Shown in pieces: positions 10,852 to 23,309 of a DNA stretch of 62,509 nucleotides. The stretch is from Chloroflexota bacterium (GTDB lineage Bacteria > Chloroflexota > Dormibacteria > CF-121). The position numbers and the translations under genes are program-made. Below the pieces are notes generated by a model. That model saw nothing but the letters and a program-made list of their open reading frames with translations. It made no database searches and was not told the origin of the DNA. The stretch lies in contig VBHC01000113.1 in the NCBI GenBank assembly GCA_005889535.1, positions 1-62,509 on the forward strand, written 5' to 3'. The first letter of the stretch is position 1; each line of letters starts with the position of its first letter.

Positions 10852-10882
10852 CCCTCCCCCTCTGGGGGAGGGTAGGGTGGGG
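10852..10882 (+). repeat. REP-like palindromic element, copy 1
   Basis: CCCTCCCCC-TCT-GGGGGAGGG-TAGGGTGGGG; 30/31 identical to 20082-20112. Confidence 0.8.
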
Positions 10883-13948: not shown

Positions 13949-14365
13949 TCAGTCATAGATCTTTCCGTTGTCCTCGATGTACCCACCCTCATGGGTGCCC
14001 TGGGGATCGTGATGGGTGAAGTGGATCAGTCCACCCTGCGCGTTCCAGATGTACTCGCCGTGGACGGTCACCTGGTCTCCGACCGCGACCGGTGCCCGCG
14101 CGCCAATGGAGACGTTGTGTTCGACCTCGACAGTGATCGCGCCGGATGACAGCTTGACGATGAACCGTTCGTGGGTGCCGGTTGCGCTGGTTTGATCGGC
14201 CAGCAGTCGCACCACGGTCCCATCCGCCGTCACCTCGACATTGGAATGGTGGCTCCGAAAATCGCTGACGACCGCGGAATTATCCGGCTGCGCCGCGCCG
14301 CCGCAGGCCGCCAGCAGCAGGCCCAGTCCGCAGGCCGTTGCGGCGGCCCTCCGGCCGCCGCGCAT
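13949..14365 (-). CDS. DUF3465 family lipoprotein
   Basis: LAAC lipobox; HERFIV, GEYIWN..GGLIHFTHHDP.G.HEGG motifs. Start moved to the ATG at 14365. Confidence 0.8.
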   Translation of the reverse strand: MRGGRRAAATACGLGLLLAACGGAAQPDNSAVVSDFRSHHSNVEVTADGTVVRLLADQTSATGTHERFIVKLSSGAITVEVEHNVSIGARAPVAVGDQVTVHGEYIWNAQGGLIHFTHHDPQGTHEGGYIEDNGKIYD

Positions 14366-14367
14366 GC

Positions 14368-14760
14368 TTAGCTGACCTTGACCTCGCCGAGCATCTGGGC
14401 GTGGATCTGGCAGTGGTACTTGTAGTCGCCCGCCTTGCTGAACGTCACCATGAATTTCGCCCCGGCATTTTGCAGGCATGAGTCGAACGTGGTGTTGTCA
14501 TCGGTAACGCTATGCTGCGCTGAGCTGTCCTGGAAGTCCCATTCGACCGTGTCACCGGTCTTGACGCTGACCATCGCCGGATCGAATTTGCCAATCGTGT
14601 TGGGATCCGCGACCACCTTCACGGTTTGCGTCGCCGTACCGCTGCTGCTACCGCCCGTCGGACTGCAGCTCTGACCACCATTGTCACCGCCCGAGCCGCC
14701 GCAGCTGGCGAGTAGTAGCGCGGCCGCGACCGACCCGATCGCCATCTTCCAAACAGTCAC
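14368..14760 (-). CDS. Blue-copper (plastocyanin/amicyanin-like) lipoprotein
   Basis: LASC lipobox; ligand set H(SVT)...C-Q-I-H-A-Q-M. Confidence 0.88.
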   Translation of the reverse strand: MTVWKMAIGSVAAALLLASCGGSGGDNGGQSCSPTGGSSSGTATQTVKVVADPNTIGKFDPAMVSVKTGDTVEWDFQDSSAQHSVTDDNTTFDSCLQNAGAKFMVTFSKAGDYKYHCQIHAQMLGEVKVS

Positions 14761-14865: not shown

Positions 14866-15087
14866 TTACTCGGGGAGCTCGGCAAACTCCCGGCGCGCAT
14901 CGCGCACCCATAGAGCGATCGCCGCAACCATGATCACGGCACCGGCGATGCTGATCAGCAGGTTCAGGATGAGTCCGATCAGAAGCACCGCGACGCCGAC
15001 CGCCAGCACAGGTGGCCAGATGCTGGGCGGCGGCAGGTGAAAAGCCTCGTGGCTTTCGCTGTGAGGCTGCTGCTCAGGCTCTGCCAT
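14866..15087 (-). CDS. ctaF: Cytochrome c oxidase subunit 4 (actinobacterial CtaF-like)
   Basis: HLPPPSIWPPVLA motif and 2 TMs; ATG in a TGATG overlap. Confidence 0.7.
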   Translation of the reverse strand: MAEPEQQPHSESHEAFHLPPPSIWPPVLAVGVAVLLIGLILNLLISIAGAVIMVAAIALWVRDARREFAELPE

Positions 15088-15203
15088 CAGCCAAAGTTGT
15101 TGTAGATGAGCGCCCACGCCAGGGAGAGCCCCAGCATGATGAGCGCCGTCACAAACAGCAGCACCCCGAGTCGAACATTCTTGCGCGCTTCGTCTCTATG
15201 CAT
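15087..15203 (-). CDS. 38 aa single-TM protein, putative oxidase small subunit or assembly factor
   Basis: MHRDEARKNVRLGVLLFVTALIMLGLSLAWALIYNNFG; its stop overlaps the ctaF start. Confidence 0.65.
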   Translation of the reverse strand: MHRDEARKNVRLGVLLFVTALIMLGLSLAWALIYNNFG

Positions 15204-15216
15204 GGGCCAGAGGAAA

Positions 15217-17007
15217 CTATAACCTCCCCACCATTCGATCGGCCACCATCACCGCGAACAGCAACCCAAGATACGCGATCGAATAGTCGAAGAGCAGACG
15301 GGACCAGCGCTGGCGGCGGGCGCGCAGGTTGACAACGGCCAGCGCGATGAACAGGCCGCCAAGGAGGACGGCGCCGCCGAGGTAAAGAAGCCCGAGAGCG
15401 CCGGTCAGGACTACCGCCAGCGTGACGGCGACCAGGACCAGCGTGTAGAAGAGGATCTGCCGACGGGCGGCGGCATCGCCGCGAACCACCGGCAACATCG
15501 GCACGTGCGCCCGCGCGTAGTCACCCCTGAGCCGGAGGGCGAGCGCCCAGAAGTGGGGAGGCGTCCAGAGAAAGATGATGGCGAACAGGTAAACCGCGGT
15601 CAGGTCGAGCCGGTGGGCGACGGCCGCCCACCCGACCATGGGTGGCACCGCGCCCGCGGCGCCCCCGATCACGATGTTCTGCACCGTCGAGCGCTTCAGC
15701 CAGAGGGTGTAGACGAACACGTAGAAAAGCAGGCCGCTGATCGCCAGGGTCGCGGCCAGTACGTTGACCCAGAAGGCAAGGATGAGGAACGCCGCCAATC
15801 CGAGCCCGATGCCAAAGATCAGCGCGTGGCTGGGCGCGATCCGTCCGTCCGGAAGGGGACGCCGCCGGGTGCGCAGCATCTCGCGGTCCAGGTCGCGGTC
15901 GATCCAGCAATTGATGGCGCCGGCACCGGCCGCCGCCAGCGCGCCCCCCAGCAGGGTGAGCACGACGAGTCCCGTCGACGGCCAGCCGCGCTCCGCCATC
16001 ATCATCCCGCCCAGGGCGGTGATCAGCAGTAGCGGGATGATTCGTGGTTTGGCCAGGCTGACGTAATCCATGACGACGTCGCGGACGGAAGACCTGGCTG
16101 ATCGCCTCCCAGTTCGGACGTCCATCGGCTCCTCAGCTGGAGGCAGGCGGCTGGCGATCACGGCGAGGACCACAGTCCCGGTCCAGACGGCGCTCGCCAG
16201 GGCAAGGTGGAGGCCGCGCAGCACCGTGGGCAGATGCAGCGTCACGACAGCGGCGCCGACGGCAACCTGAAACGCCAGGGCCGCCAGCGTCAGCGCGACC
16301 GTCGCCCGGACGGCCGGCTCGCGCCGGTGCCGGGCGAGCACCGACAGCAGGCCGATGACCACCAGCAGACCGACGACCGCGGCAACCCCCCGGTGCATCA
16401 GCTGGATGGCGGGGGAGCCGTCGAAGGCAAGGCGGAAGCCGCCGCCACAGAGCGGCCAGGCATCGCAGGCGCTACTCGCGCCGCTGCCGACCACCAACGA
16501 TCCGCTCAGGACCAACAGATACGTGCCGGCGGCGGCGCCGCGGGCGCGTCCCGCCGACTGCGCGTCAACCTGCCCCGGTGGGATGGGCATCAGCGCGGCG
16601 ACCGCGGTGACGCATACGGCTCCCAGCAGCGCCATCGCGGTGGCGAGGTGGACGAGGACGATCATCGGTGGGAGCTCCAAGCGGACGGTGATCGCACCCA
16701 GCGCCACCTGGACGGCGAGCAGAGCCACGGCAAGCGTGGCCGGAATCACCAGGTCGCGCCGGTTACGCCAGGCGATCCACGCCACCAGGGCAGTCAGCAC
16801 GACGAGGACGCTCGTCAGCGAGGCCGTGGTCCGATGCGAGTACTCGATGATGGCATGCAGGTCGAGGGGCGGCAGCAGCCGGCCGTGACACAGCGGCCAG
16901 TCCGGGCAACCGAGCCCGGATCCCGAGACTCGCACCACCCCGCCGAGGACGACCAGCGCGTAGGTCACCACCGCGGTGGCGACGCTCAACGCGCGGAAGC
17001 CCTTCAC
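15217..17007 (-). CDS. ctaA-ctaB: Fused heme A synthase (CtaA) + heme O synthase (CtaB)
   Basis: N half: GSGLGCPDWPLCHG, EYSHR and H motifs. C half: KPRII, DRDLD..M.RTRRRPLP and WTPPHFWALA. Confidence 0.9.
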   Translation of the reverse strand: MKGFRALSVATAVVTYALVVLGGVVRVSGSGLGCPDWPLCHGRLLPPLDLHAIIEYSHRTTASLTSVLVVLTALVAWIAWRNRRDLVIPATLAVALLAVQVALGAITVRLELPPMIVLVHLATAMALLGAVCVTAVAALMPIPPGQVDAQSAGRARGAAAGTYLLVLSGSLVVGSGASSACDAWPLCGGGFRLAFDGSPAIQLMHRGVAAVVGLLVVIGLLSVLARHRREPAVRATVALTLAALAFQVAVGAAVVTLHLPTVLRGLHLALASAVWTGTVVLAVIASRLPPAEEPMDVRTGRRSARSSVRDVVMDYVSLAKPRIIPLLLITALGGMMMAERGWPSTGLVVLTLLGGALAAAGAGAINCWIDRDLDREMLRTRRRPLPDGRIAPSHALIFGIGLGLAAFLILAFWVNVLAATLAISGLLFYVFVYTLWLKRSTVQNIVIGGAAGAVPPMVGWAAVAHRLDLTAVYLFAIIFLWTPPHFWALALRLRGDYARAHVPMLPVVRGDAAARRQILFYTLVLVAVTLAVVLTGALGLLYLGGAVLLGGLFIALAVVNLRARRQRWSRLLFDYSIAYLGLLFAVMVADRMVGRL

Positions 17008-18642
17008 TCAGGCGTGTTCGGTCGCGGCCGTGACGCCGCGTCGCAGGTCGCGCAACGGCCGACCACTGCGCACCGGCGGGACGCTATCGAAGTTGTAGGC
17101 CGGCGGCGGCGAGGTGGTCGCCCACTCGAGGGTGTTGGCCTCCCATGGGTCGGCCGACGCCCGGCGGCCGCCACGCACGCTGATCGCGACGTTGATCAAG
17201 AAGATCAGGATCGCGGTCGCGATCATGAAGGCGCCGATGGTCGCGATTAAATTCCAGGGCGCCCAGTCAACCCGATTGGCGTTCCAGATCGCGATCCGCC
17301 GCGGCATCCCCTCGAGGCCGAGAAAGTGCATTGGCATGAATGTGACATTGAAGCCGAGCAGCTGGATCCAGAACTGGATCTTGCCCAGCGTCTCGTTGAG
17401 ATAGCGGCCGGTCATCTTCGGAAACCAGTAGAAGAAGCCGGCAAAGACGCCGAACACACTCCCGCCAAACAGGACGTAATGGATATGGGACACCACCCAG
17501 TAGGTGGCGTGGATCTGGTAGTCCACCGCCAGCGACGCCATGAAGACGCCGTCGACGCCACCCATCAAAAACATGAGGACGAAGGCCACGGAAAACAGCA
17601 TTGCTGTCGTGTACTTGATCGACCCGCCCCACAGCGTCGCCATCCAGTTCAGCACCTTCACCCCCGAGGGGACGGCGATCATCGCGGTGGTCGCCATGAA
17701 GAATTCCTGCAGGGCCAGCGGTAGGCCGGTGGTGAACATGTGGTGGGCGAAAACCATGAAGCCCAGTACGCCGATGGCAGCCATGGAGAAGGCCATCGCC
17801 CGGTAGCCGAAGATCGGTTTTCGGCTGAAAACCGGGATGACCTCGGAAACGATACCGAACGCCGGCAAGATCATGATGTAGACCGCGGGGTGTGAGTAGA
17901 ACCAGAAGATGAACTGGTAGAGCAGCGGGTCTGACCCATGGATGAAGAAGTGGGTGCCCAACTGCCGATCCATCAGTACCATCGCCAGCACGCCCGCGAG
18001 GAAGGGGCTGGCGAGCAAGACCAGGCCGGCGGTGATCTCCATCGACCAGACGAACAGCGGCAGGCGGAACCAGGTCATCCCGGGGGCCCGCATGTTGTGG
18101 ATCGTCACCAGGAAGTTGATCGCGCCCATGATCGAGGAGATGCCCAGGATGTGCAGCCCCAGGATCCATAGGTCCTGGCCGAGCCCGGCGGCGTAGGCTT
18201 TTTCGGTCAGCGGCACATAGCCGGTCCAGCCGGCCGCGGCCGCCCCGGTCTTCGTGAGGAGGCCGCTGTACATCGTCAGGCCGCCGAGCGGGATCAGCCA
18301 GAAGGAGAAGGCGTTGATCCGGGGGAATGCCATGTCGCGAGCGCCGATCATCAATGGCACGAAGTAGTTCCCGAAACCGGAAAAGACCGGGATGATCCAG
18401 AGGAAGATCATGGTCGTCCCGTGCAACGTCATGATCTCGTTGTAGGTCTGTGCCGCGAGGAAGTGGTTGTTGCCCACCGCCAGCTGAGTCCGCATCAGGA
18501 GGGCCATGATGCCGCCCACCAGGAAGAAGAAGAAGGTCGTGTAGAGGTAGAGAATGCCGATCTTCTTGTGGTCGACCGTGGTCAGCCACTCAACGAGAAC
18601 GCTTCTCCGGGCAGCCTGCCGTGGCAGGGCGATGCTAGCCAT
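17008..18642 (-). CDS. coxA: Heme-copper oxidase subunit I, A2 type
   Basis: HGTTM, GWTGY.PL, YSHPAVY (A2 YS motif), AHHMF and HIH ligands. Confidence 0.96.
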   Translation of the reverse strand: MASIALPRQAARRSVLVEWLTTVDHKKIGILYLYTTFFFFLVGGIMALLMRTQLAVGNNHFLAAQTYNEIMTLHGTTMIFLWIIPVFSGFGNYFVPLMIGARDMAFPRINAFSFWLIPLGGLTMYSGLLTKTGAAAAGWTGYVPLTEKAYAAGLGQDLWILGLHILGISSIMGAINFLVTIHNMRAPGMTWFRLPLFVWSMEITAGLVLLASPFLAGVLAMVLMDRQLGTHFFIHGSDPLLYQFIFWFYSHPAVYIMILPAFGIVSEVIPVFSRKPIFGYRAMAFSMAAIGVLGFMVFAHHMFTTGLPLALQEFFMATTAMIAVPSGVKVLNWMATLWGGSIKYTTAMLFSVAFVLMFLMGGVDGVFMASLAVDYQIHATYWVVSHIHYVLFGGSVFGVFAGFFYWFPKMTGRYLNETLGKIQFWIQLLGFNVTFMPMHFLGLEGMPRRIAIWNANRVDWAPWNLIATIGAFMIATAILIFLINVAISVRGGRRASADPWEANTLEWATTSPPPAYNFDSVPPVRSGRPLRDLRRGVTAATEHA

Positions 18643-18657
18643 TGCTTTGTGTCACCT

Positions 18658-19677
18658 TCATCCTCCGGTCACGGTGATCGTGCCGCGCATCCCGGCGGCC
18701 TCGTGGAACGTACACAGGTAGCTATAGGTACCAGGCTTTGAGAACTTGAGCTCGAACTTGTCCCCGCCGTTCTGAGTGTCCGAGCTGGGCACCTGCTGAT
18801 TGCTAAAGGTGACATTGTGTAGGGCCGTGCCGGCATTCGTCCACTGAATCACGTCGCCGACCTTCGCTGTGGAGCTGGCCGGTTCGAATTTGAGAGCGTC
18901 GGTCTCGTTGACGTGGACGACCGCAGTCACCCCGCTCACCTTGTCGGCAACCGGCTGCCCGCCGCCCGGCAGCCCTTTCCCACTGAGGTAAGCCTGATAG
19001 TCGGCGCTCGACACCGCATCGACTTCGAGCGACATGGCGTAGTGGCCCAGGCCGCACAACTCATTGCACTGACCGAGATATGTGCCCGGCTGGCTGGCCT
19101 CGATCCAGCCGTGATTCATCTGGCCGGGAATGGCATAGACCTGGCCACCGAGACGGGGTACCCAGAATGAGTGCAGGACATCTTTGCTGGTGACGTGCAG
19201 TTGCACAACCTGGCGCACCGGGATGACGAGCCTCGAGTTGCCCGTCTTGCCGTTGGGATACTTGAACGACCACGCCCACTGAATGCCGGTTACCTGGATG
19301 GTCTGCTGCGGTGGTGGCCCATTGCGGACGTAGTCCATTCGCAACGTGGTCCGTAAAAACAGGAACGACACGATCAGCAGCGGCACCGCCGTCCACACAA
19401 TCTCCAGCCGGGTATTGCCATGAATCTGCGACGGTTCGCGATCGTCCCGGCGGCGGAATCGCAGCGCGGCAAAGACGATCAGGCCGCCCACGATGACGAG
19501 CACGGCCATCGCGACCCAGAAGATCGTCGTATAGACGCTGACGATGTCGCAGGCGTTGGGGCCGGCGCAATTGAGGGGACTGACGTTGACCGCGGCGGCG
19601 GTGATGGGGGTTAACCCGGCAGCGACGCCGAGCGCGAGAAGCATGCCGAGCAGCAGTCGACGTTGATTCACGCTCAC
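18658..19677 (-). CDS. coxB: Cytochrome c oxidase subunit II with a C-terminal type-1 copper domain
   Basis: CuA motifs HSFW and CNELCGLGHYAM, plus an extra cupredoxin domain (HNVTF...CTFHEAAGM). Confidence 0.93.
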   Translation of the reverse strand: MSVNQRRLLLGMLLALGVAAGLTPITAAAVNVSPLNCAGPNACDIVSVYTTIFWVAMAVLVIVGGLIVFAALRFRRRDDREPSQIHGNTRLEIVWTAVPLLIVSFLFLRTTLRMDYVRNGPPPQQTIQVTGIQWAWSFKYPNGKTGNSRLVIPVRQVVQLHVTSKDVLHSFWVPRLGGQVYAIPGQMNHGWIEASQPGTYLGQCNELCGLGHYAMSLEVDAVSSADYQAYLSGKGLPGGGQPVADKVSGVTAVVHVNETDALKFEPASSTAKVGDVIQWTNAGTALHNVTFSNQQVPSSDTQNGGDKFELKFSKPGTYSYLCTFHEAAGMRGTITVTGG

Positions 19678-19702: not shown

Positions 19703-20137
19703 TCACCGGTGAAACAGCCACCATCGGCCTCCGGGTGCGCGGTCGCCGTTGATCTCCTGCGCCGTCCGGCGCGCGTCGTGCATCGCGTCGTACCAGGCGG
19801 TCAGCGCCAGGAAGAAGGTGGCCATGAACAGCAGCAGCGACAGAATCTGGAGGAGGAGGGAGAGCACGACCATGGCGCTGCCCCGCGGGCGCCAGAGCGC
19901 CAACAGCTCGCCGGTCGCGCCCGGAATGTTTAGGGTGACGACGAACAGGCCGACGACCCCGAGCAGAAAGATGGCCGCTTTCCGAGGTTGACGGTTGTAC
20001 AGCTGTCCCAGGCCCGGAATCGCGGACAGCCAGGTCGCCAGCCGGACGCTTGCCCGCCGCCCCGCGAGGGCCACCGCTTTGCCCTCCCCCTCAGGGGGAG
20101 GGTAGGGTGGGGGCGGCTTCAGATGCAGTTCGACCAC
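19703..20137 (-). CDS. Hypothetical membrane protein (IPGLGQLYN motif family)
   Basis: 3 TMs. The start is uncertain (GTG at 20137 or 20074); the REP element lies in frame at the N-terminus. Confidence 0.6.
   Translation of the reverse strand: MVELHLKPPPPYPPPEGEGKAVALAGRRASVRLATWLSAIPGLGQLYNRQPRKAAIFLLGVVGLFVVTLNIPGATGELLALWRPRGSAMVVLSLLLQILSLLLFMATFFLALTAWYDAMHDARRTAQEINGDRAPGGRWWLFHR
20082..20112 (+). repeat. REP-like palindromic element, copy 2
   Basis: CCCTCCCCC-TCA-GGGGGAGGG-TAGGGTGGGG. Confidence 0.8.
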
Positions 20138-20285: not shown

Positions 20286-20416
20286 CAGCCGCCTGCCTTG
20301 TGAGCCTTGGTGACGTCGAGCAGGTTCTCGGACACGATCACGAGGGCGGTCAGGCCGACGAGCAGGACGAAGGCGATCGCGGTGCCGATCAGGTTCTTTA
20401 ACTGCTGACGTCTCAC
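20285..20416 (-). CDS. 43 aa single-TM protein in the bc operon
   Basis: MRRQQLKNLIGTAIAFVLLVGLTALVIVSENLLDVTKAHKAGG; GTGA overlap with the cytochrome c stop. Confidence 0.65.
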   Translation of the reverse strand: MRRQQLKNLIGTAIAFVLLVGLTALVIVSENLLDVTKAHKAGG

Positions 20417-21432
20417 GGCAAGCTCGTGTACTGCTGCCACATCCGGATCCAGTGGACCAGCAGGTTGACGTTGTCATTGATTGGCTGCGGCAGCAACTTC
20501 TTGAGCCCCCAGGCAGGCATGATCGTTCCCAGGTGGTCTTCGCCCTGGTTACCCAGGTAGATGCAACGGTAGTAGTAGTCGTCACTGAAGAAGCCGAGCC
20601 GGTTCTGATCGTTGAGCGGCGGCCCCTTCCCTCCCTCTCCCAGGGCGCCGTGGCACTGGGCGCAGTTGTTCTCGTAAAGCTGCGGCGCCTTGTCGTACAC
20701 GCCGAATGGGCTCGGCACCAGGTCCGCGTGGGCACCCGCCTCAGTGGTTGCCTGCCGGTTGCCGTTGTGGCAGATGATGCAGCCGCTTTCATCGATCCCC
20801 AAACCCTTGTACTGGCTTGGGATGAAGCCGGTCAGCTGGGCCACCACCGGCTTGTTCGTGCTGGGGTCGTTCACGACTTTGCCGTTCGCGTCCAGCAGGT
20901 AGTACGCCTGCGCCTTCGGGTCGAGGCAGCTGGCCGCGGCGGCGGCGGCCGGCGAGGCGGATGGTGTCGGCGAGGCCGCCGGCGCGGGCGAGGTCGCCGC
21001 CCCGGGCGCAGCCGATGATGATGGCCTGGCGGATGCGGACGGCTTCGGCGAGGCGCTCGCCGATGGGCTGGCACTGGCGGACGGGCTGGCGGCGGCCACC
21101 GGCCGGCAGACCAACGTGTCCTGTCCGTACTTGGCGAAGACCGCGTCATTGATGACGGCCGGATGATTCGGGCCCAGCCGCTTGGCGGCTTCCTGCGGAC
21201 CGATCTTTTGGATATCGGGGACGTGACAGGTAATGCAGCGTTCGACGACGAACTGGTTGTTGACCTGGACCCTGGGGAACAGCTGCTGCACCTGGATCGG
21301 GAAGTCGGCGCCATACTGCTTCGCATACTTCTGCTGGATCGGAACCCACGGCCGGTTCAGGTCCTGGTAGAAAGCGAAGGCCAGCAAGACCAGAAACAGA
21401 CCGCTCGCCACCAGGAAGGCTCGACCTAACAC
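20413..21432 (-). CDS. Membrane-anchored triheme cytochrome c of the Rieske/cyt b complex
   Basis: Three CxxCH motifs (CITCH, CIICH, CAQCH), an N-terminal TM and an Ala/Ser/Pro insert. Confidence 0.88.
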   Translation of the reverse strand: MLGRAFLVASGLFLVLLAFAFYQDLNRPWVPIQQKYAKQYGADFPIQVQQLFPRVQVNNQFVVERCITCHVPDIQKIGPQEAAKRLGPNHPAVINDAVFAKYGQDTLVCRPVAAASPSASASPSASASPKPSASARPSSSAAPGAATSPAPAASPTPSASPAAAAAASCLDPKAQAYYLLDANGKVVNDPSTNKPVVAQLTGFIPSQYKGLGIDESGCIICHNGNRQATTEAGAHADLVPSPFGVYDKAPQLYENNCAQCHGALGEGGKGPPLNDQNRLGFFSDDYYYRCIYLGNQGEDHLGTIMPAWGLKKLLPQPINDNVNLLVHWIRMWQQYTSLP

Positions 21433-21968
21433 GACCTGCCTCCGCAGGTCTGCGGGTTACCCAGCACCCAGCCCCAATCCCAGATGAACTCATGGCCGCG
21501 GAAGAAGGTCCCGATGATGACCAGGGCGACCACGATCGCCATGTAGAGCCCGAAGAGAATGATGGCAACCTTCCGTTCCGACGGTCGACGGCTCGGATTG
21601 CGATCCAGGAAGGGCACCAGGATCATCAGCACGATGACGAAGGTCGGAAAGGCAACCCCCGCCATGAGCGGCGGGAATCGGGACAGCAGCTCCTGCAAAC
21701 CCAGGAAGTACCAGGGAGCTTTGGAAGGGTTGGGCGTGACGCCGGGATTTGCCTGCCCGAGCAGGGGCGCTTGCAGGAAGATCGAAACCAGGATCAAAAA
21801 GACGGTCATCGCCACCGAGGCGATGAACTCTTTGAAAATGAACTCGGGGAAGGAGACGATCATCTCGTCTTCGCTGTCGTCCCGCACCGTGGTGGGCGCC
21901 TCCATCTGACGCCGGCGCGCCTCCACGCGCTGGCGGGCGGCGATCCGATCCGTTGCCTCGGTGGCCAT
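21426..21968 (-). CDS. Cytochrome b C-terminal part / subunit IV (PetD/QcrC-like)
   Basis: TPNPSKAPWYFLGLQELL (PEWY-equivalent) and LVPFLDR motifs. Confidence 0.88.
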   Translation of the reverse strand: MATEATDRIAARQRVEARRRQMEAPTTVRDDSEDEMIVSFPEFIFKEFIASVAMTVFLILVSIFLQAPLLGQANPGVTPNPSKAPWYFLGLQELLSRFPPLMAGVAFPTFVIVLMILVPFLDRNPSRRPSERKVAIILFGLYMAIVVALVIIGTFFRGHEFIWDWGWVLGNPQTCGGRSC

Positions 21969-21974
21969 GCCTAG

Positions 21975-22706
21975 CTAGAGGCCTCCGCTGAACCCATCTT
22001 TTCGAACCCGCCAGAAATGGACGACCATCAGGAGAAATCCGACGAGCGGCAGCCCGACGACGTGCATCACATAGAAACGAAGCAGCGTGGCATCACCGAC
22101 CGCGTGACCGCCCAGCATCAGGTAACGAGTGTAGGGGCCGGCGATCGGCGCGTATTTCGCCATGTTCGTCCCCACCGTCACGGCCCAGATGGAGAGCTGG
22201 TCCCAGGGCAGCAGGTAGCCGGTGAAGCTGAGCAGCAGTGTGACCAGCAGCAGCACGGTCCCGATGCCCCAGTTGAACTCGCGAGGTTTCTTGTAGGCAC
22301 CAGTCAGGAAGACGCGCGCCATGTGCAGCCAGACCGTGATCACCATGGCATGCGCCGCCCAGCGATGCATGTTCCGGATCAGGCCGCCGAAGGTCACGAC
22401 GAACTGCAGGTCACGCATGTCTTGATAAGCGTGGTTGATCGACGGGACGTAATAAAACATCAGGTAGAGGCCGGTGACAGTGAGGACGATGAAGAGGAAG
22501 AACGAGAGTCCACCGAGGCAGAGGGTGTAGGACATTCGGATCCAGGAGCGACGGACCCGAACCGGGTGAATGTGCAGCACGAAGTTGGTCAGCGCCGTGC
22601 GCGCCGCGATCTTGTCGGTCAGCGGGAGGCCATGGCGAAAGACGGCCGAGGTCATTTGCCCAACCATCGACCACATCTCATCGACCGCGGCGCGGATGAC
22701 CCTCAT
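21975..22706 (-). CDS. Cytochrome b6-like N-terminal subunit (PetB/QcrB-like)
   Basis: HRWAAH...[13 protein letters not shown] and MHV...VHF heme His ligands. The Cys in YTLCLGG is at the heme ci position. Confidence 0.92.
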
Positions 22707-22724
22707 GAACCCTCCTGTCCCTCG

Positions 22725-23309
22725 CTAAACCTTGAGGCGAAACTTGTGATCGACGACGATCGAGCGGTCGATGAAAAGACGGCCGTCCTTGGCCAGCTCC
22801 ATGTGTACCCGATCCATCGGTCGCGGTGCCGGACCGAAGAAATTGTCGGCGTCCCGAAAGTAGCGGCTGCCGTGGCAGGGGCACTTGAAGCCCGGTAAGG
22901 TCGGATTGGCCTTGGTCGCCAGCTGGCCCGTGTCTGGATCCCTCGAGATCTGGGTGCCGGCCAAGACCAGGTCACTGGTCACATCCGGAAAATACCTCGG
23001 CGTGCAGCCGAGGTGAGTGCAGATGAGGCTGATGGCGTAAAAGCCGTCCTGGTCACGATTGATCACGACCCGTTTGTCGATCAGGACGGTGGTCGACCCC
23101 ACGGCGTAGCTGGTCGGGAAGGCCAGCTCACCCACTGGCTTGAACGCCGGCGGATCCTCATAGGTGGCGTTCGGTTGGATGAATTTGACGCTCTGGAAGA
23201 GTGCGATCGCCGAGGCCACCGTGAAGCCGACCCAGCCGACGATCGCCAGGAAGCTGCGACGTGTCATCTCGCGGCTGTCCTCGACCAGGCGCTTGAAATC
23301 GGCAGCCAT
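22725..23309 (-). CDS. Rieske iron-sulfur subunit
   Basis: TRRSFL Tat motif; CTHLGC and CPCHG boxes, with a long insertion between them. Confidence 0.93.
   Translation of the reverse strand: MAADFKRLVEDSREMTRRSFLAIVGWVGFTVASAIALFQSVKFIQPNATYEDPPAFKPVGELAFPTSYAVGSTTVLIDKRVVINRDQDGFYAISLICTHLGCTPRYFPDVTSDLVLAGTQISRDPDTGQLATKANPTLPGFKCPCHGSRYFRDADNFFGPAPRPMDRVHMELAKDGRLFIDRSIVVDHKFRLKV

What the first reader, a model, noticed from the sequence alone, without database searches (positions are those of the whole stretch)
18658..19000. CoxB fused to a type-1 blue-copper domain instead of cytochrome c, plus a separate cupredoxin lipoprotein
Seen: after the CuA domain comes HNVTF...CTFHEAAGM. The same operon encodes a lipoprotein with an amicyanin-like short loop, CQIHAQM (14368-14760). 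Established: A2 caa3 oxidases normally fuse a cytochrome c at this position. Inference: electrons pass from complex III to complex IV through a copper relay.
Basis: partly seen in the sequence, partly recalled or inferred. Interest (0 to 1): 0.55.

Follow-up and report, generated by a model that had tools for sequence, protein, structure and literature searches.

The report
Oxidase subunit II with blue-copper domain
An uncultured soil bacterium (Dormibacteria) has a respiratory oxidase whose electron-receiving subunit carries an extra, intact blue-copper domain, plus a second lipid-anchored blue-copper protein in the same gene cluster, so copper proteins probably do the job that cytochrome c does in related oxidases; I found no paper on it and its function is untested.

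Summary
ORF 18658-19677 (-) is a true CoxB (two TM helices, complete CuA site) followed by a short linker and a plastocyanin-like type-1 copper domain (His287, Cys322, His325, Met330, invariant in 25 homologues). ORF 14368-14760 (-) is a lipoprotein cupredoxin with a C-x2-H-x2-M loop. Both lie in one same-strand cluster: Rieske, cytochrome b6, subunit IV, three-haem cytochrome c, membrane protein, CoxB-Cu, CoxA (A2 type, YSHP), CtaA-CtaB, small subunit, cupredoxin lipoprotein, DUF3465.

New here: among 151 sampled Dormibacteria genomes the fusion occurs only in two genera of one family. Sister genera and families keep the same cluster with a plain CoxB and one free lipoprotein cupredoxin. The fused domain groups with the free lipoproteins of another family (55% identity), not with its own neighbour (41%). 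So a free carrier became tethered; a cytochrome c domain was not swapped out. Distant fusions in other Chloroflexota and in Thermoplasmatota look independent.

The most likely function is a built-in electron entry, T1 Cu to CuA. This is inferred, not shown. This scan has already reported the same architecture on other DNA (Dormibacterota, Limnocylindria, Acidimicrobiia). I found no paper describing it. The closest precedents are caa3 oxidases, sulfocyanin in SoxM and halocyanin-CbaD fusions.

The parts
18658..19677 (-). coxB: oxidase subunit II (339 aa) with a C-terminal type-1 copper domain
   Evidence: COX2_TM, COX2 and PF00127 all above their cut-offs, TIGR02866 192.6 bits. AF2 model: pLDDT 90.3, pTM 0.72. 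Best structural matches are oxidase subunits II, including 2yev.
18982..19320 (-). CuA domain (about residues 120-232; H169, C204, E206, C208, H212, M215)
   Evidence: Motifs HSFW and CNELCGLGHYAM, invariant in 25 homologues.
18949..18981 (-). Gly/Pro-rich linker (about residues 233-243)
   Evidence: No regular secondary structure. It holds the lowest pLDDT block of the extramembrane part (78) and is variable in the alignment.
18661..18948 (-). Plastocyanin-like type-1 copper domain (residues 244-339). Ligand codons: H287 18817-18819, C322 18712-18714, H325 18703-18705, M330 18688-18690
   Evidence: PF00127 at 54.4 bits. Nearest solved sequence is plastocyanin 1bxu, E 3e-14, with the ligands aligned. 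Fold matches: amicyanin 1aac Z 14.3 / 1.7 A / 93 residues, plastocyanin 7zqe_M Z 13.3 / 1.3 A / 85 residues. Ligands are invariant.
14368..14760 (-). Free cupredoxin lipoprotein ('type B'): lipobox LASC, Gly/Ser tether, H83, C117-x2-H120-x2-M123
   Evidence: It sits at the same position in the cluster in families f1, f2 and f4. Lipobox and ligands are intact in both fused and unfused genera.
17008..18642 (-). coxA: oxidase subunit I, A2 subtype (YSHPAVY)
   Evidence: PF00115 at 541.7 bits, TIGR02891 at 691.9 bits.
15217..17007 (-). Fused haem A synthase / haem O synthase (CtaA-CtaB)
   Evidence: PF02628 at 7-276 and PF01040 at 327-570 in one 596-aa ORF.
14866..15117 (-). Small membrane protein, weakly similar to oxidase subunit IV
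   Evidence: PF12270 at 25.3 bits, just under its cut-off of 26.9. Syntenic in all Dormibacteria clusters examined.
13949..14365 (-). DUF3465 lipoprotein; its start lies 2 nt after the cupredoxin stop codon
   Evidence: PF11948 at 94 bits. Follows the cupredoxin lipoprotein in family f1 clusters.
20413..21432 (-). Membrane-anchored cytochrome c of the bc complex: CxxCH at residues 66, 218 and 257, with an Ala/Ser/Pro-rich linker of about 60 aa between haem 1 and haems 2-3
   Evidence: [quoted passage not shown]
21426..23309 (-). Rieske protein (22725-23309), cytochrome b6 (21975-22706), subunit IV (21426-21968)
   Evidence: PF00355, PF00033 and PF00032.
19703..20074 (-). DUF6677/DUF5683-like membrane protein between the bc and cox genes
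   Evidence: Weak Pfam matches. Syntenic across families.

Best explanation
The gene encodes subunit II of an A2-type haem-copper oxidase. Its outward-facing CuA domain is followed, after a linker of about 12 residues, by a complete plastocyanin-like type-1 (T1) copper domain. I read this domain as a built-in electron-entry station, the copper counterpart of the cytochrome c domain of caa3 oxidases. In this reading, electrons leave the Rieske/cytochrome b6 complex encoded upstream through its membrane-anchored three-haem cytochrome c. They reach the tethered T1 copper either directly or through the lipid-anchored cupredoxin encoded at the end of the cluster. They then pass T1 Cu -> CuA -> haem a -> haem a3/CuB. 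The lipoprotein cupredoxin is the older, mobile carrier. It was probably kept because it also serves the second, carrier-less CuA oxidase on another contig. Shown: the domain architecture, conservation of the ligands, the fold, the synteny, and the relation of the fused domain to free lipoprotein cupredoxins. Inferred: copper binding, and the direction and order of electron transfer.
For: Complete CuA and T1 ligand sets are invariant in 25 homologues. PF00127 and TIGR02866 score above their cut-offs. The AF2 model has pLDDT 90.3, and its C-terminal domain superposes on amicyanin, plastocyanin and an N. maritimus cupredoxin at 1.1-1.7 A. The domain lies after TM2 and CuA, so on the outer face. 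The short linker keeps it close to CuA. The bc-cox cluster is conserved in families f1, f2 and f4, and every one has a lipoprotein cupredoxin at its end, which ties cupredoxins to this oxidase independently of the fusion. The fused domain is 55% identical to the free lipoprotein of G083 (f2) and groups with f2 free lipoproteins in the tree, a Rosetta-stone type link. In the own genome the only c-type cytochrome domains detected are the complex III subunit and an SCO1-cytochrome c fusion; no small soluble cytochrome c was found. The nearest CoxB clusters mostly carry a cytochrome c at this position (71 of 150), which shows that the C-terminus of subunit II is a usual place for a tethered donor. 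The best Foldseek match with a tethered carrier is Thermus caa3 subunit II, 2yev_B, at 37% identity.
Against: There are no biochemical data. The organisms are uncultured. Sister genera (g82-g84) and other families run the same cluster without the fused domain, so it is not essential to the design. I could not read model coordinates, so no T1-CuA distance or interface was measured. The free type B cupredoxin is retained intact in the fused genera, so the tethered domain may not be the only or main entry. The genome is 81% complete, so the lack of a soluble cytochrome c is 'not found', not 'absent'. Operon status is inferred from same-strand contiguity and synteny only; the promoter and terminator scans were uninformative.
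Confidence: 0.6

Rival explanations
1. The tethered domain is a side port rather than the main entry. The free lipoprotein cupredoxin (or the three-haem cytochrome c) reduces CuA directly, as it must in the unfused sister genera. The fused T1 domain would then collect electrons from another donor, or pass them to another acceptor such as the second oxidase, acting as a branch point.
For: Unfused relatives work with one free cupredoxin and a plain CoxB. The free type B protein stays intact after the fusion. The genome has a second CuA oxidase with no carrier domain of its own.
Against: A linker of about 12 residues holds the domain next to CuA, which favours intramolecular transfer. No other candidate partner is encoded nearby. 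Every other tethered carrier known at this position (the caa3 cytochrome c domain) feeds CuA.
Confidence: 0.2
2. The domain handles copper rather than electrons. It would act as a copper store or chaperone that helps load CuA or CuB, as PCuAC and Sco proteins do.
For: Some copper chaperones have cupredoxin-like folds (CupA 4f2e appears at Z 8.8, though against the CuA domain). The genome encodes an SCO1-cytochrome c fusion elsewhere, so copper-site assembly factors with redox domains do occur here.
Against: The ligand set His, Cys, His, Met with C-x2-H-x4-M spacing and the His-Asn motif is that of redox T1 sites, not the Met/His-rich sites of PCuAC. The closest sequences and folds are plastocyanin and amicyanin. 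The free relatives are typical lipid-anchored carriers.
Confidence: 0.07
3. The fusion is a neutral or decaying read-through product with no function.
For: It is confined to two genera in the sample.
Against: It is present with all ligands intact in 24 genomes of genus g1 and 6 of g81, and in more than 100 metagenomic clusters at 63-82% domain identity. Divergence of that size with invariant ligands implies selection.
Confidence: 0.03

Closest known systems
caa3-type (A2) cytochrome c oxidase, e.g. Thermus thermophilus (PDB 2yev)
   Same: Subunit I is the A2 subtype (YSHP motif). An electron-carrier domain is tethered to the C-terminus of subunit II after CuA. 2yev_B is among the best structural matches (37% identity, 2.3 A over 201 columns). 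In Thermus a separate mobile carrier, c552, feeds the tethered one (from memory), which parallels free cupredoxin -> tethered cupredoxin.
   Different: The tethered carrier is a type-1 copper cupredoxin, not a haem c domain; there is no CxxCH in the protein. Subunit I is not fused to subunit III, and no COX3 was found in the genome or in 37 of 41 genomes of the family.
SoxM supercomplex of Sulfolobus acidocaldarius with sulfocyanin (SoxE); sulfocyanin in Ferroplasma
   Same: A blue-copper protein sits between a Rieske/cytochrome b module and a CuA subunit II within one terminal-oxidase assembly (my knowledge of Komorowski and Schafer; sulfocyanin's association with subunit II is mentioned in PMC10654088).
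   Different: Sulfocyanin is a separate membrane-anchored subunit in archaea. Here the cupredoxin is covalently fused to subunit II in a bacterium, and a c-type cytochrome is still present in complex III.
Halocyanin, and the halocyanin-CbaD (subunit IIa) fusion of Halobacterium/Haloarcula ba3 oxidases
   Same: A lipid-anchored type-1 copper carrier is thought to donate to a terminal oxidase. In some species it is fused to an oxidase subunit, which has been read as evidence of partnership (PMC3128077; PMC8305020).
   Different: There the fusion is to the single-helix subunit IIa of a B-type oxidase, with the cupredoxin N-terminal. It is archaeal and is listed as uncharacterised. Here the fusion is to the CuA subunit of an A-type oxidase.
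Auracyanins of Chloroflexus/Roseiflexus
   Same: Same phylum in GTDB. They are membrane- or lipid-anchored free cupredoxins that carry electrons from the quinol oxidoreductase to the oxidase or reaction centre. The fold matches (1ov8 Z 9.1).
   Different: They work with Alternative Complex III rather than a Rieske/b complex, are never fused to CoxB, and are only distantly related in sequence (E 2e-4).
Three-domain copper nitrite reductases with tethered cupredoxin (Hyphomicrobium 2dv6/6tfd, Thermus scotoductus 6hbe), and the N. maritimus multicopper oxidase with a C-terminal cupredoxin (9cck)
   Same: The principle is the same: the enzyme's own cupredoxin donor is fused to it. 9cck's C-terminal domain is the nearest solved relative of the free lipoprotein (E 5e-11).
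   Different: These are different enzymes, not haem-copper oxidases.

Membership tests
[quoted passage not shown] | Model score above the curated cut-off | tested here: met
   TIGR02866 scores 192.6 against 147.7. PF00116 scores 80.1 and PF02790 scores 39.6.
[quoted passage not shown] | Binuclear CuA ligands: H, C-x-E-x-C-x3-H-x2-M | tested here: met
   H169 and C204-N-E-L-C208-G-L-G-H212-Y-A-M215, invariant in homologues.
[quoted passage not shown] | Two N-terminal TM helices, and a gene adjacent to subunit I | tested here: met
   AF2 helices at 40-73 and 89-119. coxA starts 15 nt after the coxB stop codon.
Type-1 blue copper proteins (PF00127, plastocyanin/azurin family) | Pfam score above the gathering threshold | tested here: met
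   The fused domain scores 54.4 and the lipoprotein 34.5, against a cut-off of 21.2.
Type-1 blue copper proteins (PF00127, plastocyanin/azurin family) | Four ligands: His ... Cys-x(2)-His-x(2-4)-Met | tested here: met
   H287, C322, H325, M330 in the fused domain; H83, C117, H120, M123 in the lipoprotein.
Type-1 blue copper proteins (PF00127, plastocyanin/azurin family) | Greek-key beta-sandwich cupredoxin fold | tested here: met
   Model residues 242-337 against 1aac: Z 14.3, 1.7 A, 93 residues. Against 5fc9: Z 13.7, 1.1 A. Against 7zqe_M: Z 13.3, 1.3 A. This is a predicted, not a solved, structure.
Type-1 blue copper proteins (PF00127, plastocyanin/azurin family) | Binds one Cu with the ~600 nm charge-transfer band, narrow A-parallel EPR and reversible redox | not testable with these tools
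   Needs expression and spectroscopy.
Plastocyanin proper (TIGR02656) / amicyanin (TIGR02657) / halocyanin (TIGR03102) | Equivalog model score above the cut-off | tested here: not met
   Fused domain: plastocyanin 58.8 against 87.85. Lipoprotein: halocyanin 44.4 against 93.8, amicyanin 27.4 against 110.2. Both resemble these proteins but are not members of those named families.
caa3-type (A2) oxidase | Tyr-Ser (YSHP) motif in subunit I helix VI in place of the GHPEV glutamate | tested here: met
   FWFYSHPAVY in CoxA. The second oxidase on C212 has FFGHPEVY, i.e. A1. That this motif defines the subtype is from my knowledge of Pereira et al. 2001.
caa3-type (A2) oxidase | Cytochrome c domain (CxxCH) fused to the C-terminus of subunit II | tested here: not met
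   No CxxCH and no PF00034/PF13442 match in the 339-aa protein. It works like a caa3 oxidase but is not one.

The most novel reading that the evidence does not exclude
The cluster encodes a hard-wired complex III-IV assembly with a three-station relay that needs no diffusible carrier. A three-haem cytochrome c whose distal haems hang on a flexible linker of about 60 residues hands electrons to a lipid-tethered cupredoxin and/or the CoxB-tethered cupredoxin, which feeds CuA of an oxidase that lacks subunit III. The recent tethering in two abundant soil genera would be an adaptation that speeds or secures electron delivery in a monoderm living on trace substrates. The sister genera would serve as natural before-and-after controls.
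Probability: 0.3. Interest if true: 0.65.

Novelty: new variant of a known kind. Interest (0 to 1): 0.5.

Why it matters
Tethered electron donors on oxidase subunit II are known only as cytochrome c domains (caa3). A copper version would show that this design was reached with a different cofactor. It would also extend copper-based carriers, known from haloarchaea, Sulfolobales, ammonia-oxidising archaea and Chloroflexus, to an abundant group of uncultured soil bacteria. The Dormibacteria offer an unusually clean comparison. The same gene cluster exists with and without the fusion in neighbouring genera, and the free relatives of the fused domain are identifiable. The effect of tethering on electron-transfer rate and copper or iron economy can therefore be tested with recombinant soluble fragments, without culturing the organisms.

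Tried and rejected
I used the genome search and the fetch from genomes instead.
2. Measuring the T1-CuA distance in the AF2 model: coordinates are not exposed (one search shows only FASTA files), so no distance or interface is claimed. The VIA alignment to 2yev_E extends into the C-terminal domain (252 aligned, 4.4 A), but I do not treat that as evidence of equivalent placement.
3. Literature: nine full-text searches and eight papers read found no description of a CoxB-cupredoxin fusion. They did find the halocyanin-CbaD fusion and sulfocyanin. Subscription journals are not covered, so this means 'not found', not 'never published'.
4. The cupredoxin-domain-only search with the search for homologous proteins reached only close Dormibacteria relatives, because of its word-index limit.
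5. The promoter and terminator scan gave counts no different from shuffles.
6. Lipobox for CoxB itself: the conserved N-terminal LNCAG...C is not a canonical lipobox, so I rejected that reading.
7. The idea that the fused domain is a duplicate of the neighbouring lipoprotein: rejected. They share 41% identity, against 55% to the f2 free proteins, and they fall in different clades, with the type B clade supported 100/100.
8. I looked for a close free type A relative in the unfused genera of the same family and found none (best 40%, which is type B). Whether type A was inherited or transferred stays open.

Full report
OBSERVATION. The minus-strand ORF 18658-19677 translates to 339 residues containing the quoted HNVTF and CTFHEAAGM. 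Pfam finds COX2_TM (37-106), COX2 (147-222) and Copper-bind PF00127 (254-336; 54.4 bits, cut-off 21.2). NCBIfam's CoxB equivalog TIGR02866 scores 192.6 against a cut-off of 147.7. The CuA ligands are H169, C204, E206, C208, H212 and M215. The type-1 ligands are H287, C322, H325 and M330, with plastocyanin spacing C-x2-H-x4-M and the His-Asn motif. ORF 14368-14760 gives a 130-aa protein with lipobox LASC, a Gly/Ser-rich tether, H83 and CQIHAQM (C-x2-H-x2-M, the amicyanin spacing), and PF00127 at 34.5 bits. These are the only two PF00127 matches in the genome.

CONTEXT. The minus-strand cluster reads as follows:
- Rieske protein (22725-23309)
- cytochrome b6 (21975-22706)
- subunit IV (21426-21968)
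- a membrane-anchored cytochrome c with three CxxCH motifs and an Ala/Ser/Pro-rich linker of about 60 residues (20413-21432)
- a DUF6677-like membrane protein
- CoxB-cupredoxin
- CoxA (17008-18642, motif YSHPAVY, i.e. A2 subtype)
- a CtaA-CtaB fusion (15217-17007)
- a small subunit-IV-like protein (14866-15117)
- the cupredoxin lipoprotein
- a DUF3465 lipoprotein
Promoter and terminator scans were uninformative, so 'operon' rests on contiguity and synteny. The genome is a 2.77-Mb, 221-contig assembly, 81% complete. Database names of close homologues say Candidatus Dormibacteraeota. In the genome collection it sits in a class within a large phylum that also holds Limnocylindrales-like families.

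THE REST OF THE GENOME. A second oxidase lies on contig C212. It is A1 type (GHPEVY), and its CoxB has a CuA site but no carrier domain. No COX3 was found. COX3 was also not found in 37 of 41 genomes of the family; G208 and G229, two of the four with a match, are unpublished genomes. Besides the complex III subunit, the only cytochrome c domain detected is an SCO1-cytochrome c fusion on C77. A small soluble cytochrome c was not found, but the genome is incomplete.

HOW WIDESPREAD. All 120 best homologues in the 5.8-billion-protein collection share the architecture PF02790+PF00116+PF00127 at 69-83% identity. A few are named 'cytochrome c oxidase subunit II/plastocyanin' by JGI. In 25 of them every CuA and T1 ligand is invariant.

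Among 151 sampled genomes of the class, full-length matches occur in 24 genomes of the window's genus g1, plus one split at contig ends, and in 6 of genus g81. These counts include the unpublished G187 and G229; without them they are 23 and 5. Genera g82, g83 and g84 of the same family, and families f2, f3, f4 and f40, match only over residues of about 10-240. Other unpublished genomes in that call (G137, G153, G171, G197, G198, G208, G209, G230, G246, G255) count only towards the unfused tallies. G038 likewise counts only as unfused.

Among the 150 best 50%-identity cluster representatives, 71 have CuA followed by CxxCH, 38 have CuA only, 5-6 have CuA plus a cupredoxin, and 22 are proteins made of 4-10 tandem cupredoxin domains. 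The other CoxB-cupredoxin lineages include a Chloroflexota family (f12; a partial relative is named Limnocylindrales) and a group named Candidatus Thermoplasmatota that ends in a PGF-like C-terminal anchor. Their cupredoxin domains form a separate, distant group in the tree, so these look like independent fusions.

ORIGIN OF THE FUSED DOMAIN. tblastn synteny maps of 18 related loci show the same bc-cox cluster in families f1, f2 and f4. Each has one free cupredoxin at the end of the cluster. All those read are lipoproteins with a Gly/Ser tether and full ligand sets. Genera g1 and g81 have that protein and, in addition, the fused domain.

In a maximum-likelihood tree, the free lipoproteins of f1 and f4, including the window's own, form a clade with 100/100 support ('type B'). 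The fused domains group with the free lipoproteins of f2 ('type A'), though that part of the tree is unresolved. Pairwise, the fused domain is 55% identical to the G083 free protein and 41% to its own neighbour. The unfused genera of f1 have no close type A relative (best 40%, which is type B). So a free, lipid-anchored carrier of a kind already associated with this oxidase cluster became tethered to CoxB in the ancestor of g1 and g81. Whether type A was inherited or acquired is open. The nearest relatives do not have a cytochrome c domain that could have been replaced.

STRUCTURE. AlphaFold2 with a 53-row alignment gives pLDDT 90.3 and pTM 0.72. It predicts a signal-like helix, two TM helices, the CuA barrel, a loop at about 233-243 and a second beta-sandwich. 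Foldseek and VIA-align place the N-terminal two-thirds on oxidase subunits II, including Thermus caa3 2yev (37% identity). Residues 242-337 superpose on amicyanin 1aac (Z 14.3, 1.7 A, 93 residues), the N. maritimus cupredoxin 5fc9 (Z 13.7, 1.1 A) and plastocyanin 7zqe_M (Z 13.3, 1.3 A). By sequence, the nearest solved protein is plastocyanin 1bxu (E 3e-14) for the fused domain. For the lipoprotein it is the C-terminal cupredoxin of the N. maritimus multicopper oxidase 9cck (E 5e-11).

MECHANISM. The best reading (about 0.6) is that the tethered T1 copper is a built-in electron entry to CuA, analogous to the haem c domain of caa3. It would be fed by the complex III cytochrome c directly or through the lipoprotein cupredoxin. 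The lipoprotein would persist because it is the ancestral mobile carrier and probably also serves the second oxidase.

Architecture, conservation, fold, topology, synteny and evolutionary origin are shown. Copper binding and the order and direction of transfer are inferred. Rival readings are a side port or branch point (0.2), copper handling or assembly (0.07), and a functionless relic (0.03; contradicted by conservation).

COMPARISON WITH THE KNOWN. It works like a caa3 oxidase but fails that family's defining haem c domain. It is a CoxB and a type-1 cupredoxin by every sequence and fold test available. It is not a plastocyanin, amicyanin or halocyanin by their equivalog models. Functional precedents:
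- sulfocyanin in the SoxM complex (my knowledge; mentioned in PMC10654088)
- halocyanin and the uncharacterised halocyanin-CbaD fusion (PMC3128077, PMC8305020)
- auracyanin
- cupredoxin-tethered nitrite reductases
- the proposal that plastocyanin-like proteins replace cytochrome c between complexes III and IV in Nitrososphaerales and Angelarchaeales (PMC9038741)
Genome papers on Dormibacteraeota that I could read mention only 'cytochrome c terminal oxidases'.

EARLIER NOTES OF THIS SCAN. The same architecture was already reported on other DNA: Dormibacterota (e1-936146, e1-4539393), Limnocylindria (e1-1159901, e1-1261587), other Chloroflexota (e1-1476759, e1-5066476), Acidimicrobiia (e1-1898591), and an N-terminal version in an Omnitrophota-like genome (e1-792265). 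My results agree with them. They add the genus-level boundary of the fusion, the two cupredoxin paralogue types, and the unfused natural controls.

VERDICT. The feature is real and conserved, and I found no paper on it. It is a new variant of a known design, a tethered donor on oxidase subunit II, not a new kind of system. Interest is moderate (0.5).

Noticed in passing
window 20082-20107 and 10852-10877 (minus strand): A 26-nt GC-rich hairpin element (CCCTACCCTCCCCC-N-GAGGGGGAGGG) occurs twice in the window against 0 expected. One copy lies inside the respiratory cluster, between the small ORFs after the cytochrome c gene and the DUF6677-like gene. About 7 near-copies of its 21-nt core occur on other contigs. 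It looks like a REP-like repeat or an attenuator. In spurious ORFs it reads as PPYPPPEGEG.
   Followed up: partly
window 20413-21432 (-): The complex III cytochrome c has three CxxCH motifs (residues 66, 218, 257). Haem 1 sits near the N-terminal anchor, and haems 2-3 lie beyond an Ala/Ser/Pro-rich linker of about 60 residues whose length varies between families. This suggests a swinging distal domain. There are only weak sequence matches to solved cytochromes (best E 0.003).
   Followed up: partly
window 15217-17007 (-): Haem A synthase (CtaA) and haem O synthase (CtaB) are fused in one 596-aa ORF directly after coxA.
   Followed up: no
window 14866-18642; whole genome: The A2 oxidase cluster has no subunit III gene. 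PF00510 was not found in this genome (81% complete) or in 37 of 41 genomes of the family. A small protein that is weakly subunit-IV-like follows ctaAB instead.
   Followed up: partly
L001 (G000 contig C212) 2841-8490: A second, A1-type oxidase (CoxB with CuA but no carrier domain; CoxA with a 100-residue N-terminal extension) is followed by two ORFs with no Pfam match and by a 565-aa ORF that joins a partial UbiA prenyltransferase match to an AhpC/TSA-redoxin (TlpA-like) domain.
   Followed up: no
L002 (G000 contig C77) 184-1215 (-): An SCO1/SenC copper chaperone fused to a C-terminal cytochrome c domain, next to a galactose-oxidase-like Kelch protein. Outside complex III, it is the only c-type cytochrome domain found in the genome.
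   Followed up: no
proteins P0144-P0265: Twenty-two cluster representatives of 277-1166 aa consist of 2-10 (mostly 5-7) tandem cupredoxin domains related to the fused domain (34-41% identity). They could be 'copper wire' proteins. Their origin and context were not examined.
   Followed up: no
window 13949-14365 (-): A DUF3465 lipoprotein starts 2 nt after the cupredoxin lipoprotein stop codon and accompanies it in all family f1 clusters examined. It was not seen in the f2 or f4 clusters. Its function is unknown.
   Followed up: partly
proteins P0189, P0262, P0309: CoxB-cupredoxin fusions named Candidatus Thermoplasmatota have a longer ligand loop (C-x3-H-x4-M) and end in a PGF-like motif plus a hydrophobic helix and Arg-rich tail, like an archaeal PGF-CTERM anchor.
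   Followed up: no
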